From the IMG/VR virus record IMGVR_UViG_2693429719_000008, positions 1 to 22,252 of that record: a stretch of DNA of 22,252 nucleotides, one strand, 5' to 3'. The position numbers and the translations under genes are program-made. How positions within the stretch are numbered: position 1 is the first letter of the stretch; every line of letters begins with the position of its first letter. The DNA comes from a virus. Its lineage: Duplodnaviria; Heunggongvirae; Uroviricota; Caudoviricetes. This document shows positions 2,457 to 15,053 of the stretch, piece after piece. The notes under the pieces were generated by a model, which saw only the letters and a program-made list of their open reading frames with translations, was not told the DNA's origin and ran no database searches.

Positions 2457-2783
2457 ATGGGCATTACTATTTTCAGCAGTGAAATACAGGATGTTGATAG
2501 CGAAGCGATGTACAAGAGTTGGCTAGCAACCCATTCCGATGGATTCGTTATTAATCTGCTTAAGTCGGCCAGCGGGAAAGGCAGAAAAAATGATGCCAGA
2601 TTTACGCGGATTCATCGAGCCTCATGCAAATCAATCAACCCGTTAATCAGCCCAAAAAATCACGCCGGCTTTACTACTGGCCGATACCAAAAAGTATGTG
2701 TTCTTACGCTTGACGAGGCCGAGTCCACCGCAGGCCAACTAACAGGACTGCCAACCATCCAGAGATGTCATTGGTGTATATAA
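2457..2783 (+). CDS. Hypothetical protein, cargo gene next to cos, transcribed opposite to the terminase genes
   Basis: 108-aa ORF preceded by an AT-rich region and followed by a hairpin terminator; no family recognised. Confidence 0.35.
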   Translation: MGITIFSSEIQDVDSEAMYKSWLATHSDGFVINLLKSASGKGRKNDARFTRIHRASCKSINPLISPKNHAGFTTGRYQKVCVLTLDEAESTAGQLTGLPTIQRCHWCI

Positions 2784-2827
2784 GATACTGCAGTTACGAT
2801 GGGCCTGCCCATGATGACGGAATAATA

Positions 2828-2846
2828 AACCGCCAAAAAGGCGGTT
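2828..2846. terminator. Bidirectional rho-independent terminator-like hairpin between convergent ORFs
   Basis: AACCGCC-AAAAA-GGCGGTT stem-loop flanked by A/T-rich runs on both strands, directly after the stops of the 2457..2783 (+) and 2848..3135 (-) ORFs. Confidence 0.5.
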
Positions 2847-2847
2847 A

Positions 2848-3135
2848 TTAAATTTGACCTCTTGACTTTTCTATTTCATAAAGACCCACTCCATCTCCTG
2901 CATCAAGCAATGCATAATATTCAGGGTCTTTAATTCGATCTATCTGATTTGAAATTTCAAGTAACTCATCCTTTAAAGAATCTACTTCAGAGGCTAATCT
3001 TTCATTTTCATCCCTCAGCTCCCTAACTTCTTGCTGTAAAGACAGTAAGCTCTTCCCGGTTGCTGGAAATCGGTTTATCTCATGCCAGATTGCAACTATT
3101 AAAGCTAATACCGCAACGGTTAAAGATGTCATCAT
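2848..3135 (-). CDS. Small membrane-anchored coiled-coil protein, function unknown
   Basis: 95 aa with an N-terminal hydrophobic segment (SLTVAVLALIVAIW) followed by heptad-like charged sequence (LQQEVRELRDENERLASEVDSLKDELLEI); GGGAGA-type RBS before ATGATG. Confidence 0.5.
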   Translation of the reverse strand: MMTSLTVAVLALIVAIWHEINRFPATGKSLLSLQQEVRELRDENERLASEVDSLKDELLEISNQIDRIKDPEYYALLDAGDGVGLYEIEKSRGQI

Positions 3136-3163
3136 TGGTCTCCCTTTACTTTACAGGATATAG

Positions 3164-3200
3164 CACCATCACAGACACTCTACGAGATCCTGTGATGGTG
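3164..3200. repeat. Perfect 11-bp inverted repeat (CACCATCACAG / CTGTGATGGTG) with 15-nt spacer in the 5' region of the 2848..3135 gene
   Basis: Read directly from the sequence. Confidence 0.6.
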
Positions 3201-3242
3201 AGATTAGAATGGAGGCTGTCTATGGTGATGCACCTGTGGATG

Positions 3243-3782
3243 TTATGATTTTTCGATCATTTTTATTACATTTTTGGCTGGCTTAATTTTCATCGTATCG
3301 CCGGTAGCAAGGTGCACAAGCAACATTAATTTGCGAACGTTGCCGCCCTGTTCCCATATCTTATTTTTCATATCTCTGGCCCAGTCGCCATTAGTATCAT
3401 TTTGAATAAAGAAAAATGCATATTCGCCATGCTCAATTTTTTTTGGTAAATCGTCACCAAACCCACCCCCCAGAATCTGAAGTAGTGAGTTTTTTGTACC
3501 GAACGTCCATGTTACTGAAGTTATAGTTGCGGTTTGAATGCCAACATTTGCAATGTTGATCGTAACTCCAAACGTGCTCACATTTTGGCCTGTGATGCCC
3601 CCAAGCGATACTGTTCCTCTTAACTTCGGTCGAGGTCGACGGTTAGAAATATATAAAGTCAGGCATACTGCCATAAAGGTTGCAATGCCTGAAAACCACG
3701 TTCCTACCATTGACCAAAAAGCCCATTCTGCTGTATTTCTAGTGGCAACCAATGATTCGTAAGCTATATAATCTGCGTTCAT
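3243..3782 (-). CDS. Single-pass membrane protein, function unknown; start uncertain (ATG at 3782 with GAGGTG RBS, or ATG at 3824)
   Basis: AT-rich coding region; the track ORF extends to 3986 through GC-rich DNA that is probably not coding. N-terminal hydrophobic segment AEWAFWSMVGTWFSGIATFMAVCLTLYI followed by a ~130-aa soluble part. Confidence 0.45.
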   Translation of the reverse strand: MNADYIAYESLVATRNTAEWAFWSMVGTWFSGIATFMAVCLTLYISNRRPRPKLRGTVSLGGITGQNVSTFGVTINIANVGIQTATITSVTWTFGTKNSLLQILGGGFGDDLPKKIEHGEYAFFFIQNDTNGDWARDMKNKIWEQGGNVRKLMLLVHLATGDTMKIKPAKNVIKMIEKS

Positions 3783-4100
3783 CTTCACCTCATTTATCGA
3801 TGAAGTGATTGTAACTAAAAGCATTATCGCAAGCACTAAGTGAATGCCAACCACACTCTCGCAGTAGCTGCGCTCATTCCCTTGAGGCCATGTGTCAGGG
3901 GTATCTCGTGAATCCCTCACCACTAACCGGAAGCTGACTGGCGACCAGCCTGGAGTACCGGTGCGCTTCTTCCCGTTACCCCTCACCAGTACGCCCTCAG
4001 CTTTTTACCTGAGACTGGCTACCCGCAACTTTGGGTATTCGGGGCAGCATCATGACTGCTGCATTGGCGCCACTTGCCACGGTCCGTCCGCTTTACTGCT

Positions 4101-4358
4101 TCATAGCTTGATCCTCTCTGCTTCAATTTTTCGAATATCAGCTTTATCTCGGTTACAGGTCGCCAGCGCGGAAAGCAGACTGACATTCAAATCCAGACTG
4201 CCCCCATAGGTCAGCGGATCAGGAATAACTGGTTGTGGGGTCTCAGTGGTCAGATTCGCCGGTAGCGGTACCGCTGGAACTGGTACGTAAACTGTCCGCG
4301 TACCGGCGCAGCCGTTCAGCTGCACGAGCAGGAACAGGACGGGCAGCGCAATCATCAT
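4101..4358 (-). CDS. o-spanin (Rz1-like outer-membrane lipoprotein), overlapping the 3' end of the i-spanin gene in another frame
   Basis: Internal start MMIALPVLFLLVQLNGC gives a lipoprotein-type signal with Cys, followed by a proline-rich mature part (VPVPAVPLPANLTTETPQPVIPDP). Confidence 0.6.
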   Translation of the reverse strand: MMIALPVLFLLVQLNGCAGTRTVYVPVPAVPLPANLTTETPQPVIPDPLTYGGSLDLNVSLLSALATCNRDKADIRKIEAERIKL

Positions 4359-4635
4359 TCGCAACAGCCGTTTTGATATCTGTCTGGGTTCTCTGTGACT
4401 CCAGTGCAATCTGCTGTTTTGCATGCTGGCTAGCCTCCAGAACTGTATTGACGATTTGCAGTGATTGCAGGACGTTATTGGTAATGACAGTTGTCGATTT
4501 GGCATTTTGTACAGCCTCATCAGCACGTTTCTTTTCGTGCTGATATTTGCTGTAGTAGTGGTTGGCAGACCAGATGAAAGAACCGATGACAGTAACGAGA
4601 AAAGCAGCGATAACCAGCTTATAGCTCAACTTCAT
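4243..4635 (-). CDS. i-spanin (Rz-like)
   Basis: 130 aa with N-terminal TM (LVIAAFLVTVIGSFIW) then coiled-coil-like sequence; sits directly after the endolysin with an embedded/overlapping lipoprotein ORF. Confidence 0.7.
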   Translation of the reverse strand: MKLSYKLVIAAFLVTVIGSFIWSANHYYSKYQHEKKRADEAVQNAKSTTVITNNVLQSLQIVNTVLEASQHAKQQIALESQRTQTDIKTAVANDDCAARPVPARAAERLRRYADSLRTSSSGTATGESDH

Positions 4636-5095
4636 TTACCACCCCACCAGCCTCTTTAAATCGGGAAATCAGGTCACCGATTTTATGTTCATACTGACCG
4701 TAACCTGCTCCGGGTAACGAAGCCCAGATATTGCTGCAACAGTCGATTGCCTGACGGATGTCACCGCGATCAATCATTAGTAAAGCACCACGCTCCTTAA
4801 TCTGCTGCAATGCAACAGCATCCTGGCTTTTAGGAGAGAAGTCTGTCAGCCCTAACTGCTTGCGGTAAGCATCCCACCAGCGTGAAAGAAGTTGATAACG
4901 GCCTGCGGCTGTTGATTTGAGTTTCGGGTTTAGCGTGACAAGTTTTCGAGGGTGATCGGAGTAATCAGTGAAGAGTTCGCCACCGACAATAACGTCATAA
5001 CCGCGGTTACGTGTCGGTTGTCGCCCGTTATCCGTTCCTTCTGACCACGCCAACATATCGAGGAAAGCTTTACGCTGAGGATTAAGATTTTGCAT
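4619..5095 (-). CDS. R: Endolysin, lambda R-type lytic transglycosylase
   Basis: 158 aa ...NPQRKAFLDMLAWSEGTDNGRQ...YDVIVGGELFTDYSDHPRKLVTLNPKLKST...GRYQLLSRWWDAYRKQLGL... closely matches lambda R as I recall it. Confidence 0.9.
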   Translation of the reverse strand: MQNLNPQRKAFLDMLAWSEGTDNGRQPTRNRGYDVIVGGELFTDYSDHPRKLVTLNPKLKSTAAGRYQLLSRWWDAYRKQLGLTDFSPKSQDAVALQQIKERGALLMIDRGDIRQAIDCCSNIWASLPGAGYGQYEHKIGDLISRFKEAGGVVNEVEL

Positions 5096-5399
5096 TTTTC
5101 ACCCCTGTCAGTCGTTCCCAGAAGTACGTCAGTGCAACCGAGCCCATCGCACCACTAATCCCCGCTGTCGCGAGAATCATGTAAATACTGAATCCACTTT
5201 CGATACTGATCAGGCCACCAATAACACCGGTGAATCCCGATACCACTATCTGAGCCAGAGCATTTATCCAGCTCCACGTTGCTTTACTTTGCTTCACATC
5301 TATCAGATAGCGGACCAAACCGCCCCAACCTGCGATGATCAGCAAAACGAGCCAGAACGCTCCGGCAAGGCTCTCTTTTTCGTGCATATGAATAGCCAA
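5082..5399 (-). CDS. Holin (three predicted TM segments, dual-Met N-terminus MAIHM)
   Basis: 105 aa with three hydrophobic stretches, immediately upstream of and overlapping the endolysin gene; not lambda S by sequence. Confidence 0.7.
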   Translation of the reverse strand: MAIHMHEKESLAGAFWLVLLIIAGWGGLVRYLIDVKQSKATWSWINALAQIVVSGFTGVIGGLISIESGFSIYMILATAGISGAMGSVALTYFWERLTGVKNAKS

Positions 5400-5615: not shown

Positions 5616-6419
5616 ATGACAGAAAAAGATAACATTGGTAAGTTAATTTGGCATATTGCTTGCGATGAATCTGGCATTGATGGGCAACGTTTCTACGGCT
5701 TTGGCAGTCTGTGGATGAAGTACCAACGCCGTGGGGATTTCTGTCAACTAATCAGAGAACTACGCAGCAAACATGGTTTTTTTGAAGAAATAAAATGGCA
5801 AAAAGCCCATTCAAAAAGATACTCTGAATTTTATCTTGAGCTGATCGACTTATTCTTTAGAGTTCCTTGGCTAGCTTTTCATTGTATCGTGGTTGAAAAA
5901 TCAATAGTAAACAAGACATTTCATAATGGGGATTATGACCTGGCAAGGAGAAAGCACTTCACAAATCTCATTACCACAAAAATTAGCTCTGTAATTTCTG
6001 CACACCCTGAAAGAGACAGTTACTTCAGGATTGAAGTTGATCCTATCGCATCTCGTTATAAAAAGGCCGATGAAGAACTAAATGTTATTGCCAATAACAT
6101 ATTGAATAGAAAATTTGGTCGTAAAGGGATAATCAGCAGTGTAGTGACAAAAGACTCTAAAGCATCTGAAAACATTCAGCTAGCCGATTTTTTCTTAGGT
6201 GCGGTTATGTGCGCATATCAAGGAAAAGCTTCATCTGAAGCCAAAATAAGAGTATCAAACTATGTTGCTTCATATTTAGGCTGGGATCATTTGCAATATG
6301 ATACATGGCACACTGAGAGAAAATTTAATATCTGGTATTTTTATGATAAAACTCGAGGGTCACGAGATATAGAAACTCAAAATGTTAGCTTAAAGTATCC
6401 ACTTCCCCAAAAGAAATAG
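5616..6419 (+). CDS. DUF3800-like protein, cargo gene of unknown function
   Basis: 267 aa with N-terminal HIACDESGIDG and C-terminal NIQLADFFLG motifs that I associate with DUF3800; lies in an AT-rich island with its own upstream AT-rich region. Confidence 0.6.
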   Translation: MTEKDNIGKLIWHIACDESGIDGQRFYGFGSLWMKYQRRGDFCQLIRELRSKHGFFEEIKWQKAHSKRYSEFYLELIDLFFRVPWLAFHCIVVEKSIVNKTFHNGDYDLARRKHFTNLITTKISSVISAHPERDSYFRIEVDPIASRYKKADEELNVIANNILNRKFGRKGIISSVVTKDSKASENIQLADFFLGAVMCAYQGKASSEAKIRVSNYVASYLGWDHLQYDTWHTERKFNIWYFYDKTRGSRDIETQNVSLKYPLPQKK

Positions 6420-10521: not shown

Positions 10522-10676
10522 GGTGATTACCTATAAATCAAGTTAACCACCACCGCTGACGCCAATCAGTTTGGTGGTGAGACATGTAGGGTTGGCGTAA
10601 CCGGGGTAATCAACCGGCCCGACCGAAGTCGGCCCTACACGCCCCACCATAATTCAGATGTGCGTATGCTTACGAC

Positions 10677-10701
10677 AATAAAAAACACGCTCGCGGCGTG
10701 T
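10677..10701 (-). terminator. Rho-independent terminator for minus-strand (lambda-rightward) transcription
   Basis: Minus-strand ACACGC-CGCGA-GCGTGT hairpin followed by TTTTTATT. Confidence 0.6.
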
Positions 10702-10791
10702 AGTAGTCGCGATTACCTTATCCGGGACGCCAATCCCGTGTGCCGATTTTGCGGCAACGCGTAAGAATATATCCCCAGATAAATCATATCG

Positions 10792-12317: not shown

Positions 12318-13333
12318 AGATCCACCCCGTAAATCCAGTCAGTGTTTGTCAGGTCGAGTTTTGGTTTGCCGACTGTCACGCCAGCCTGTTGCTTGTTCCG
12401 GTTGATTTCGAGCTGGGTCCACTTGTCGCGGAGTTTGGCCGGACTCAGCACGTTACCGGACCAGAAGTTGTCCTGGCAGGCCCAGCGGAACAGTACACAC
12501 ATGTCGCGGTGGTTACGTCCATCACGTTCACGCATCAGACGGATATCGTTAGCCCACCCTGCAAAATTCGGTTTTCTGGCTGATGGCGCGATGGTCTTCA
12601 CCATGTCAAACATCCACTCTGCGGCGGTCAGGTCTTCTGCTGTCCCCCACTTGCTGCCGCTCTGAATCGCAGCATCCGCTTTCACCACAGGAAGGTCGTT
12701 TTCTGGCAGGTCAGAGGATTCGCCAGAATTCTCGGACGAATAAGGTTTTATATTGTCTTTTGTTAGTTTGTCTTTTGTGTTTACCTGATTCGGGTAAGTG
12801 CCTTTACCTGATTTGGGTAAACTTTTCTTACCTGATTCAGGTAAATTTACCTCTTTCAGGTAAACTTTATTTTTCTTACCTGATTCGGGTAATTTTGACC
12901 ATTCACTGACCACATTATTAATGCCGATATTCCGCCCGCTCTGAATAAAAATCCCACGCTTTACCAGAACACTTTTTGCAGCAGAACACTTGTGCGGCAA
13001 TATCCCGGTCAACTCGGAAAGTTGCTCGTTGCTCACCCAATCCAGTTTTTTATTAAAGCCATATGTTTTGCGCATGACAGCCAGGAAGACCAGAAGCTGG
13101 TGCTGTGTTAATCCGGCCAGCATTACAGCTTCCAGCAACTCATTTGCAATGCGCGTATAACCATCATCGAGATCTGCCACGCGCGGCTCCTTTTGTGCCG
13201 CATCCGGCACTGGAAAATTGAATATCTCAGCAGTGTTTGCCATAATTCCTCCCGCAATGAGTGTGTTACGATTTGCATCTGAAAGTCGGTTCTGTTCCCG
13301 CAGACCGACTTTCGCCATTTTTGAACCTGTCAT
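12314..13333 (-). CDS. O: Replication initiator O, hybrid: non-lambda N-terminal iteron-binding domain with lambda-like C-terminal P-interacting domain (alternative start at 13243)
   Basis: N-terminal region has the VADLDDGY motif but otherwise differs from lambda O; the C-terminal ~100 aa (AAEWMFDMVKTIAPSARKPNFAGWANDIRLMRERDGRNHRDMCVLFRWACQD...) matches lambda O; iterons are embedded in the gene. Confidence 0.85.
   Translation of the reverse strand: MTGSKMAKVGLREQNRLSDANRNTLIAGGIMANTAEIFNFPVPDAAQKEPRVADLDDGYTRIANELLEAVMLAGLTQHQLLVFLAVMRKTYGFNKKLDWVSNEQLSELTGILPHKCSAAKSVLVKRGIFIQSGRNIGINNVVSEWSKLPESGKKNKVYLKEVNLPESGKKSLPKSGKGTYPNQVNTKDKLTKDNIKPYSSENSGESSDLPENDLPVVKADAAIQSGSKWGTAEDLTAAEWMFDMVKTIAPSARKPNFAGWANDIRLMRERDGRNHRDMCVLFRWACQDNFWSGNVLSPAKLRDKWTQLEINRNKQQAGVTVGKPKLDLTNTDWIYGVDL
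12781..12892. repeat. Replication origin iterons inside O: five copies of TTACCTGATTCGGGTAA (one degenerate), with an adjacent AT-rich tract at about 12740-12780
   Basis: Palindromic 17-mers at 12781, 12804, 12828, 12847 (degenerate) and 12876; the AT-rich block lies on the downstream side in the O direction, as in lambda ori. Confidence 0.8.
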
Positions 13334-14930: not shown

Positions 14931-14965
14931 GTAGTATGTAAAGAATTACCTTTGGTTGATTTGTA

Positions 14966-14995
14966 ATAGCTACCGATTACGTTATCGGTAGCTAT
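14966..14995 (+). terminator. Perfect 12-bp inverted repeat hairpin (ATAGCTACCGAT / ATCGGTAGCTAT, 6-nt loop) between cI and the downstream gene; partial terminator or protein-binding site
   Basis: Read directly; followed by AAGAAATTTTTAT, so the T-run is offset 7 nt from the stem. Confidence 0.4.
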
Positions 14996-15053
14996 AAGAA
15001 ATTTTTATGTCTTTAACTGTGTTTATTTATTCAATACTAGTTGGACTATAGCA

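What the first reader, a model, noticed from the sequence alone, without database searches (positions are those of the whole stretch)
2848..3824. Two membrane-protein cargo genes between the spanins and cos, with a perfect 11-bp inverted repeat between them
In the slot where lambda carries bor there are two co-directional AT-rich genes: a ~180-aa single-pass membrane protein and a 95-aa TM plus coiled-coil protein resembling FtsB/FtsL-type or spanin-type architecture. They are separated by CACCATCACAG-N15-CTGTGATGGTG about 20 nt upstream of the second gene's RBS. Membrane proteins at this locus in lambdoid phages are often superinfection-exclusion or host-interaction factors. The perfect inverted repeat suggests dedicated regulation (operator or RNA hairpin).
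Basis: partly seen in the sequence, partly recalled or inferred. Interest (0 to 1): 0.6.

Follow-up and report, generated by a model that had tools for sequence, protein, structure and literature searches.

The report
Two prophage cargo cassettes, shared hairpin junction
The two small membrane-protein genes are real but unrelated add-on genes of a lambda-like E. coli prophage, and the perfect inverted repeat between them is not a private switch but a diverged copy of a 40-base hairpin that marks the front edge of many different add-on genes in temperate phages of enteric bacteria and seems never to have been described.

Summary
Two AT-rich genes on the minus strand lie between Rz/Rz1 and cos. 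A is 179 aa (3243-3782) and B is 94-95 aa (2848-3135). A perfect 11-bp inverted repeat (3164-3174 / 3190-3200) sits 19 nt upstream of B's ribosome-binding site.

A and B are not a pair. They occur together only in this prophage lineage (5 of 5,426 E. coli genomes), while 49 other loci hold A alone and 25 hold B alone, nearly all in the same lysis-to-packaging slot.

The repeat is one copy of a 40-nt element, consensus GGCATTACAGCAGGCATTCACTGAGTGCCTGTGATAATGC. The window holds a second, partly deleted copy upstream of A. The element is found in more than 120 viral contigs and in phi80, mEp390, ZF40 and E. coli Nissle 1917. It starts right after the upstream gene's stop codon, precedes at least 39 unrelated small genes, and occurs in co-oriented arrays of 1-4. 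Its stem covaries, with G·U pairs favouring the sense strand. Sequence mosaicism switches partners exactly at it.

It has no Rfam match and is unannotated. The closest analogue is the PeSL cassette of T4-like phages. Both proteins belong to uncharacterised families, and the resemblance of B to FtsB/DivIC is below threshold.

The parts
3243..3782 (-). Gene A, 179 aa. It has an N-terminal transmembrane helix (about residues 20-45) followed by RRPRPKLR, then an Ig-like beta-sandwich and a C-terminal helix. The family is uncharacterised.
2848..3135 (-). Gene B, 95 aa, or 94 aa from the second ATG at 3132. It has a transmembrane helix, a long helix 24-69 and two short helices. Conserved motifs are WHEINRFPAT(G/N)KS and R[IL]KDPEYYALLDAGDGxGLY.
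   Evidence: ORF. RefSeq names it a hypothetical protein, WP_024223836.1. 23 clusters, all from Enterobacteriaceae. Alignment A2. Model with pLDDT 88. DivIC hits below threshold.
3163..3202 (-). Copy of the 40-nt junction element upstream of B. It contains the reported inverted repeat (arms 3164-3174 and 3190-3200). The sense-strand RNA hairpin has 12 pairs, a 2x2 internal loop, 3 pairs and a 3-nt loop.
   Evidence: -21.8 kcal/mol, z -4.4, 0 of 200 shuffles fold as well. It is 27/40 identical to the fully paired variant of the element. Covariance model R1 gives 27.8 bits, but R1 includes this sequence. The independent model R2 gives 15.4 bits, E=0.06, which is still the best hit in the window.
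3821..3860 (-). Copy of the junction element upstream of A. Its right arm is intact (TAGTGCTTGCGATAATGC). Its left arm has lost 12 nt (GGCAT[TACAGCAGGCAT]TCACT), which abolishes the hairpin.
   Evidence: alignment A6; -8.6 kcal/mol, z -0.45. R1 gives 32.2 bits.
3823..3850 (-). Sigma-70 promoter-like site TTGGCA-16-GATAAT, preceded by TG. The 12-nt deletion in the element created it. It is the likely promoter of an A-B transcript.
   Evidence: 10 of 12 matches plus TG, the only such site upstream of A or B on this strand. Alignment A6.
3783..3820 (-). 5' untranslated region of A. It holds a conserved TACAAT and a CACTTCAT stretch complementary to the ribosome-binding region ATGAGGTG.
   Evidence: Conserved at a fixed distance in A homologues. 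Pairing is possible in 76% of cells, but there is no covariation beyond shuffles.
2828..2846 (-). Intrinsic terminator that closes the A-B unit (AACCGCCTTTTTGGCGGTT followed by a T-rich tail).
2794..2819 (-). 3' junction motif CGTCATCATGGGCAGGCCCATCGTAA. It follows the terminator of A, B and other cassettes in 32 loci.

Best explanation
The region holds two independent accessory-gene cassettes placed in tandem in the lysis-to-packaging hotspot of a lambda-like E. coli prophage. Each cassette begins with a copy of a widespread 40-nt hairpin element.

The reported inverted repeat is B's copy of that element. Its lower stem has changed on both sides (TAATGC to TGGTG, GCATTA to CACCA), so the hairpin is kept and is even more perfect. 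A's copy has lost 12 nt of its left arm. That loss destroyed the hairpin and created a good sigma-70 promoter (TTGGCA-16-TGcGATAAT).

The most likely workings are as follows.
1. A and B are transcribed together from this promoter in the lysogen, and from read-through late transcription after induction. The transcript ends at the terminator at 2846-2828. This step is inferred.
2. In that RNA the inverted repeat forms a -21.8 kcal/mol hairpin between the two coding regions, with no T-run after it. It would act as a stabiliser, attenuator or processing point, not as an operator. The hairpin is supported by covariation in the element family. Its function is inferred.
3. At the DNA level, the element and a conserved terminator-plus-motif at the 3' end serve as short patches of homology at which cassettes are exchanged between phages. 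Mosaic joints at the element are shown. The mechanism of exchange is inferred.

A and B are inner-membrane-anchored proteins of unknown function. Their domains probably face the cytoplasm, judged from the positive charges after each transmembrane helix. My best guess, which is weak, is that each acts alone at the membrane in phage-versus-phage competition or lysis modulation.
For: Independence of A and B:
- They are found together only in near-identical copies of this prophage. 49 loci hold A alone and 25 hold B alone.
- Gene tables show each gene alone between the lysis genes and the terminase in lambda-, HK97- and P22-like prophages.
- Distant relatives of A are solitary genes in variable regions.

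The element family:
- It occurs in more than 120 viral contigs, with flanks that diverge immediately on both sides.
- The window holds exactly two copies.
- It sits 30-43 nt upstream of the start of A in most A loci, and upstream of B in several B contexts.
- At least 39 unrelated protein clusters lie downstream of it.
- It forms co-oriented arrays of 1-4 copies, each bounding one small gene.
- It is present, unannotated, in the same slot in phi80, mEp390, ZF40 and E. coli Nissle 1917.

The hairpin:
- 85% of cells are paired, against at most 44% when the partners are slid.
- There are 50 cells with a change on both sides, against 14.9±2.8 in shuffles; 0 of 500 shuffles reach the observed value. 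The result is similar on alignment A5.
- G·U cells outnumber A·C cells 75 to 22.
- The sense strand folds at -22.1 kcal/mol and the antisense strand at -17.2.

The mosaic joint:
- The region upstream of A in the window shares its upstream flank with L051 and L102, and its downstream flank with L139 and L146. The switch occurs at the element.

Promoter and terminator. The 3' junction motif occurs in 32 loci.
Against: - An independent covariance model, built without the window's sequences, scores the inverted-repeat copy only 15.4 bits (E=0.06) and the copy upstream of A only in part. Homology of the inverted repeat to the family therefore rests on its position, 27/40 identity and shared geometry.
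- There are no transcript data, so the promoter, co-transcription and any RNA function are inferred.
- The element also carries a conserved -10-like GATAAT, with its A and T kept in every variant and often a TG before it. A promoter role cannot be separated from the hairpin role. However, the canonical copies lack a -35 and are not called by the promoter scan.
- Cells in the covariation counts are not independent evolutionary events.
- About half the B contexts (L012-L019, L198) have a different upstream region without the element.
- Membrane topology was not computed with a dedicated predictor.
Confidence: 0.6

Rival explanations
1. The element, including the inverted repeat, is mainly a promoter. 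Its right arm TG-n-GATAAT would be an extended -10 that gives each cassette weak constitutive expression in the lysogen. The palindrome would be a by-product or an attenuator, as in PeSLs.
For: G33, A34, T35, A36, A37 and T38 are each at least 90% conserved, although G33 and A34 are unpaired. The two key -10 positions (A at 2, T at 6) survive in every variant, including TAAAAT and the window's GATGGT. Several copies follow a terminator T-run directly, where transcription would need to restart. The copy upstream of A has become a full promoter-like site.
Against: The canonical copies have no -35, and the scan does not call them. The second sequence class (GGCTTCGATAAT) lacks the TG. In some contexts only 15 nt separate the element from the start codon, so a transcript starting there would lose the ribosome-binding site. 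The upper stem covaries, which a promoter does not require. The window's copy upstream of B has a poor -10 (GATGGT) but a perfected stem.
Confidence: 0.3
2. The inverted repeat is a dedicated double-stranded DNA operator for a repressor or activator that controls gene B.
For: It is a perfect 11-bp dyad lying just upstream of B.
Against: Neither cassette holds a regulator gene. The same element precedes at least 39 unrelated genes in phages that are not related overall. The arms show compensatory changes, and G·U-compatible changes favour one strand, which an operator would not tolerate. No promoter-like site overlaps it.
Confidence: 0.05
3. A and B form one two-component membrane system, such as a lysis-timing pair, a spanin-like pair or an exclusion complex.
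For: They are adjacent, co-directional and probably co-transcribed, and both are membrane-anchored. They lie next to the lysis cassette.
Against: They co-occur only in this lineage; 49 loci hold A alone and 25 hold B alone. One otherwise identical prophage has A frameshifted and B intact (L144). The phage already has Rz and Rz1.
Confidence: 0.07
4. B mimics FtsB/DivIC or FtsL and inhibits host cell division, in the manner of SPO1 gp56 (that comparison is from my own knowledge).
For: DivIC (PF04977) is the best Pfam hit for 21 of 21 family members, best E=1.9e-6, and the match covers the transmembrane helix plus the coiled coil. Pseudomonas FtsB (8bh1_E) matches at E=0.007 over residues 30-90.
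Against: All hits are below Pfam's gathering score (23 against 28.9 bits) and sit among generic coiled coils. A Foldseek search of the model finds nothing. The family's conserved motifs (WHEINRFPAT, KDPEYYALLDAGDG) are not FtsB motifs. The N-tail carries no positive charge and R22 and K28 follow the helix, which suggests the opposite topology (N-terminus out, C-terminus in).
Confidence: 0.12

Closest known systems
PeSL (promoter-early stem-loop) mobile regulatory cassettes of T4-like phages (Arbiol et al. 2010, PMC2839356; Comeau et al. 2014, PMC4122927)
   Same: Both are short conserved intergenic motifs. Each starts at the stop codon of the upstream gene, combines a -10 box with an overlapping stem-loop that contains G·T pairs, and ends before the ribosome-binding site and start codon of a small gene of unknown function. 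Both are concentrated in the most plastic part of the genome, are repeated in arrays, and are the points where modules are swapped (one search compared).
   Different: PeSLs carry consensus sigma-70 promoters with a -35 box and an AT-rich upstream region, and their stems act as terminators. There are about 50 per genome, and they occur in lytic myoviruses. The element here has only a -10-like hexamer and no T-run. There are 1-4 copies per phage. It lies within the late operon of temperate phages of Enterobacterales, and its 40-nt sequence is conserved across unrelated phage types. Neither promoter nor terminator activity was tested here.
Morons of lambdoid phages (bor and lom of lambda, gene 15 of HK97; Juhala et al. 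2000, from my own knowledge)
   Same: AT-rich extra genes inserted between conserved late genes, each with its own promoter and terminator, often encoding membrane or surface proteins that are expressed from the prophage.
   Different: Classical morons were not described as sharing a common boundary element. Here the cassettes share a 5' hairpin element and a 3' terminator-plus-motif.
Integron attC sites and REP elements (from my own knowledge)
   Same: Imperfect palindromes with conserved ends and a variable, covarying centre, lying between cassettes or cistrons. REP hairpins stabilise upstream mRNA, and attC sites recombine as folded single strands.
   Different: No integrase or RAYT-type transposase is associated with the element. 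It is single-copy in most genomes: one place per genome in the 94 E. coli genomes that have the canonical form. It sits at the 5' side of the gene it travels with.
FtsB/DivIC family (PF04977), for protein B
   Same: A protein of about 95 aa with an N-terminal transmembrane helix followed by a leucine-zipper-like coiled coil.
   Different: Scores are below threshold, the conserved motifs differ, and the topology is probably inverted.

Membership tests
40-nt junction hairpin element (defined here; consensus GGCATTACAGCAGGCATTCACTGAGTGCCTGTGATAATGC) | Sequence and structure match to a covariance model of the family | tested here: inconclusive
   Model R1 gives 27.8 bits, E=3e-6, for 3202-3163 and 32.2 bits for 3860-3821, but R1 was built with these two sequences among its 94. 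The independent model R2 gives 15.4 bits, E=0.06, for the inverted-repeat copy, which is the best hit in the window, and only a partial hit for the copy upstream of A.
40-nt junction hairpin element | Hairpin of about 18 pair positions with a 3-nt loop, on the coding strand | tested here: met
   For the copy upstream of B, the structure is ..((((((((((((..(((...)))..)))))))))))). at -21.8 kcal/mol, with the same geometry as the canonical copy. The copy upstream of A does not meet this, because its left arm is partly deleted.
40-nt junction hairpin element | Position: co-oriented with the late genes, in the lysis-to-packaging interval, 15-110 nt upstream of a cassette gene | tested here: met
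   The window's copies lie 27 nt (B) and 38 nt (A) before the start codons. Homologues of A and B in other phages carry canonical copies at the same distances.
40-nt junction hairpin element | A mosaic breakpoint coincides with the element | tested here: met
   Alignment A6 for the copy upstream of A.
PeSL-type mobile regulatory cassette | Active sigma-70 promoter within the motif | not testable with these tools
   Only the copy upstream of A passes a consensus scan. The canonical copies do not. No expression data are available.
PeSL-type mobile regulatory cassette | The stem-loop acts as a terminator or attenuator | not testable with these tools
   The hairpin is stable, but no T-run follows it.
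PeSL-type mobile regulatory cassette | Repeated intergenic motif at the borders of variable small genes, mediating modular exchange | tested here: met
Moron (lambdoid accessory transcription unit) | Extra gene or genes between conserved neighbours, with deviating base composition, their own promoter and a terminator | tested here: met
   The slot is occupied by different genes in related phages. G+C is 37-41% against 48-54%. Promoter-like site and terminator; neither was tested for function.
FtsB/DivIC (PF04977), for protein B | Score at or above Pfam's gathering threshold | tested here: not met
   23.0 bits against 28.9 bits. All 21 family members match at E<=0.01; the best E-value is 1.9e-6.
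FtsB/DivIC (PF04977), for protein B | N-terminus in, C-terminus out, with a periplasmic coiled coil and a C-terminal FtsQ-binding segment | not tested
   Only charge counting was done: N-tail net 0, and +1 after the helix. No topology predictor or interaction test was available.
Spanin (Rz-like i-spanin), for protein B | Match to an Rz family model, and a partner o-spanin lipoprotein gene embedded or adjacent | tested here: not met
   PHROG Rz-like families match only at E=0.03-0.09. No lipoprotein ORF is embedded. The phage already has Rz and Rz1 at 4101-4635.
Known anti-phage defence proteins (PADLOC) | Match to a PADLOC model | tested here: not met
   No hit for A or for 61 members of its family. 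B gives only a coiled-coil match to LmuB at E=0.005.

The most novel reading that the evidence does not exclude
The 40-nt hairpin may be an undescribed functional cis-element of temperate phages across the Enterobacterales. It could be a structured RNA signal in late and accessory transcripts, recognised by a specific nuclease or protein, that sets how accessory genes are expressed. It could instead be a structure-specific recombination site that lets phages trade single-gene cassettes, much as integrons do. In either case it would give a sequence tag for finding phage accessory genes systematically.
Probability: 0.25. Interest if true: 0.75.

Novelty: new variant of a known kind. Interest (0 to 1): 0.55.

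Why it matters
The element would give a simple sequence handle for locating accessory genes in enterobacterial prophages. Such genes include candidate exclusion, defence and virulence genes. It would also give a concrete mechanism, short conserved junctions, for the single-gene mosaicism long seen in lambdoid phages.

The element is present in phi80, in DH5alpha/DH10B-type laboratory strains and in the probiotic strain Nissle 1917. Its function can therefore be tested directly with standard genetics.

Protein A also defines a large family with no annotation (about 1,000 clusters at 50% identity): a membrane-anchored beta-sandwich protein.

Tried and rejected
- Pfam, PHROGs, PADLOC and NCBIfam gave no informative family for A or for ORF108, and only coiled-coil noise for B.
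- Megablast against 50,697 phage records found nothing for the A-B region.
- Rfam has no family at the element, either at gathering scores or at E<=1.
- A literature search with fragments of the element's sequence returned no paper. Searches on moron boundaries and on phi80 found no description of it.
- I considered and rejected LexA, CRP, Fur and sigma-54 sites by reading the sequence. The half-sites are in the wrong order or at the wrong spacing. This was my own inspection, not a tool result.
- The idea of an anti-Shine-Dalgarno hairpin in the 5' untranslated region of A did not hold up. RNAalifold predicts no consensus structure, and the named pairing shows no covariation beyond shuffles.
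- About three quarters of the genome-contig hits to the 18-mer pattern were chance matches outside the Enterobacterales.
Full report
**Setting.** The window is a lambda-like prophage of E. coli, read on the minus strand. The genes run in this order:
- holin (5082-5399)
- GH24 lysozyme (4619-5095)
- Rz (4243-4635), with embedded Rz1/LysC (4101-4424)
- gene A (3243-3782)
- gene B (2848-3135)
- an intrinsic terminator (2846-2828)
- a convergent ORF of 108 aa (2457-2783, + strand)
- lambda-type cosB repeats (2114-2170)
- Nu1 (1544-2089)

The same 1-kb A-B segment is found at 99.8% identity or more in only 5 of 5,426 complete E. coli genomes, and in none of 50,697 phage records. RefSeq calls both products hypothetical proteins.

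**Check of the observation.** The inverted repeat CACCATCACAG-N15-CTGTGATGGTG lies at 3164-3174 / 3190-3200. It is the only perfect inverted repeat of 11 nt or more, with arms no more than 40 nt apart, in the window. About 0.22 would be expected by chance. It ends 19 nt before the GGGAG ribosome-binding site of B. A has 40.7% G+C and B has 37.2%, against 48-54% for the neighbouring late genes.

**The proteins.**
- A has an N-terminal transmembrane helix followed by RRPRPKLR. After that come an Ig-like beta-sandwich and a C-terminal helix (model pLDDT 85).
- A profile of A's close relatives finds 976 clusters at E<=1e-3 among 1.84 billion representatives. All are about 175-195 aa long.
- None of these has a match in Pfam, PADLOC, NCBIfam or PDB sequences, and none carries a name.
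- B has a transmembrane helix, a 45-residue helix and two short helices (pLDDT 88).
- B has strongly conserved motifs, WHEINRFPAT(G/N)KS and R[IL]KDPEYYALLDAGDGxGLY.
- DivIC is the best Pfam hit for all 21 members of B's family, but it never reaches the gathering score.
- FtsB from the PDB matches at E=0.007 among generic coiled coils, and hhalign gives 30% probability. B is therefore FtsB-like in architecture only.
- Charge counts suggest that both proteins have the N-terminus outside and the C-terminal domain in the cytoplasm: +5 after A's helix, and 0 before against +1 after B's helix. This is an inference, not a prediction from a dedicated tool.

**A and B are not a pair.** Across all loci fetched, A and B occur together only in near-identical copies of this prophage, and in one of those copies A is frameshifted. 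49 loci hold A without B and 25 hold B without A. Gene tables show each gene alone, between the lysis genes and the terminase, in lambda-, HK97- and P22-like prophages of Citrobacter, Raoultella, Enterobacter, Klebsiella and E. coli. Distant relatives of A are solitary genes in other variable regions.

**What the inverted repeat is.** Comparison of the regions upstream of A and B homologues revealed a shared core, GAGTGYCTGYGATRRTGC. This core occurs twice in the window, once upstream of B (where it is the inverted repeat) and once upstream of A.

All but two of these contigs carry a discrete 40-nt element, GGCATTACAGCAGGCATTCACTGAGTGCCTGTGATAATGC, whose flanks diverge immediately on both sides.

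The element has these properties:
- It begins 0-2 nt after the stop codon of the upstream gene, or directly after a terminator T-run.
- It lies 15-110 nt before the next start codon.
- At least 39 unrelated, mostly small, protein clusters follow it.
- Phage loci carry 1-4 co-oriented copies, and each copy bounds one gene.
- It lies 30-43 nt upstream of A in most A loci, and upstream of B in several B contexts. It is absent from one class of B contexts.
- It is present and unannotated in the same slot in phi80 (44298-44337), mEp390, Pectobacterium phage ZF40 and E. coli Nissle 1917, and also in DH10B/DH5alpha-type laboratory strains.
- Among species-representative genomes, full copies occur only in Enterobacterales.
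- Rfam has no family for it, and the text search found no paper containing its sequence.

**Hairpin or double-stranded site?** On 94 distinct copies, 85% of cells pair, against at most 44% when the partners are slid. Eleven of the 18 pairs change on both sides. There are 50 such cells, against 14.9±2.8 in shuffles, and no shuffle out of 500 reaches the observed value. A model-derived alignment gives the same picture.

A second sequence class keeps the ends but swaps G-C for C-G in the upper stem. Outside the fixed positions, G·U cells outnumber A·C cells 75 to 22. The sense strand folds at -22.1 kcal/mol and the antisense strand at -17.2. This favours a hairpin on the coding strand, most simply in RNA.

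The window's copy upstream of B has changed both sides of the lower stem and folds at -21.8 kcal/mol (z -4.4).

There are two caveats. Cells are not independent evolutionary events. And a covariance model built without the window's sequences gives the inverted-repeat copy only 15.4 bits (E=0.06). That is the best hit in the window but is not significant on its own (compared).

**Promoter features.** The right arm reads TG-n-GATAAT. The A and T that matter most in a -10 box survive in every variant. The canonical copies have no -35, however, and a consensus scan does not call them.

In the window's copy upstream of A, a 12-nt deletion between two GGCAT repeats removed the hairpin and produced TTGGCA-16-GATAAT with a TG before it. 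This is the only good promoter-like site ahead of A and B. No terminator lies between A and B, and one follows B. An A-B transcript carrying the hairpin between the two coding regions is therefore the simplest reading. It is inferred, not shown.

**Junction role.** Alignment A6 shows that the window shares the sequence upstream of the element with L051 and L102, which carry other genes downstream. It shares the sequence downstream of the element with the A cassettes of L139 and L146, which have other upstream neighbours. The similarity switches partners at the element. A matching 3' junction follows A, B and other cassettes in 32 loci. It consists of a terminator plus GCCATCACCATGGGCAGACCCATCGTAATGGC, and in the window it lies at 2794-2819.

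**Comparison with known systems.** The closest described system is the PeSL of T4-like phages. A PeSL runs from the upstream stop codon, through a promoter with an overlapping stem-loop that contains G·T pairs, to the ribosome-binding site and start of a small variable gene. PeSLs are repeated in plastic regions and mediate modular shuffling (PMC2839356).

The element here differs in several ways:
- It has only a -10-like hexamer.
- No T-run follows the stem.
- There are few copies per genome.
- It sits in the late operon of temperate phages.
- Its sequence is conserved across an order of bacteria.

I therefore rate it a new variant of a known kind.

**Verdict.** The finding is real and non-random. 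The inverted repeat is a generic cassette-junction hairpin and not a dedicated regulator, and the two genes are independent cargo of unknown function. Interest is moderate. It rests mainly on the widespread, unannotated element, which can be tested directly in common laboratory strains.

Noticed in passing
window 10570-10756 (-): Rfam finds a C4 antisense RNA (74 bits) and, next to it, isrK (61 bits). This P1/P7-type antisense immunity module for an antirepressor sits in a lambda-like prophage. The same pair occurs in IMG/VR locus L043.
   Followed up: no
window 5616-6419 (+): A DUF3800 gene (267 aa, 36.6% G+C) lies on the opposite strand between Q and the holin. It matches the PADLOC candidate defence model PDC-M04A at E=7.5e-35.
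   Followed up: partly
window 2457-2783 (+): A convergent ORF of 108 aa occupies the bor-like position next to cos. It has no family match in Pfam, PHROGs, PADLOC or NCBIfam. RefSeq annotates it in only some of the five genomes.
   Followed up: partly
window 2794-2819 (-); L003 7148, L007 6559, L008 6349 and others: A second conserved junction motif, GCCATCACCATGGGCAGACCCATCGTAATGGC, is itself a small palindrome. It follows the terminators of many cassettes, in 32 loci.
   Followed up: partly
window 3783-3820 (-), and A homologues: The 5' untranslated region of A carries a conserved TACAAT/TATAAT/TATACT hexamer and a stretch complementary to the ribosome-binding site. Pairing is possible in 76% of cells, but there is no covariation.
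   Followed up: yes
L090 4753-5103, L041, L083, L087, L094, L115, L118, L124 and others: A recurring unit has a second-class element (…GGCTTCGATAATGC), then an 81-aa gene (MAEITDSEQIRLDL…), then a canonical element exactly 311 nt later. It occurs in many unrelated phage contigs.
   Followed up: partly
L144 / L191 (IMGVR_UViG_2778261498_000003): An otherwise identical prophage has gene A frameshifted while B is intact.
   Followed up: no
window 12803-12863 and 14959-15002: There is a cluster of three TTTACCTGATT/AATCAGGTAAA-type inverted repeats, and a separate 22-nt palindrome. They may be operators. I did not examine them.
   Followed up: no
window 3861-4100 (-): About 240 nt with no convincing gene lie between Rz1 and the element upstream of A. 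The end of this stretch (CTCAAGGGAATGAGCGCAGCTACTGCGAGAGTGTGG) is conserved in other phages upstream of canonical elements. A 247-aa ORF called here by one gene-caller (P0001) is probably spurious.
   Followed up: partly
OM284015.1, Elizabethkingia phage EKP1, 35844-35883: A perfect copy of the enterobacterial element occurs in a phage recorded as infecting Elizabethkingia. This is an unexpected host for the element. The record may be misassigned or contaminated.
   Followed up: no
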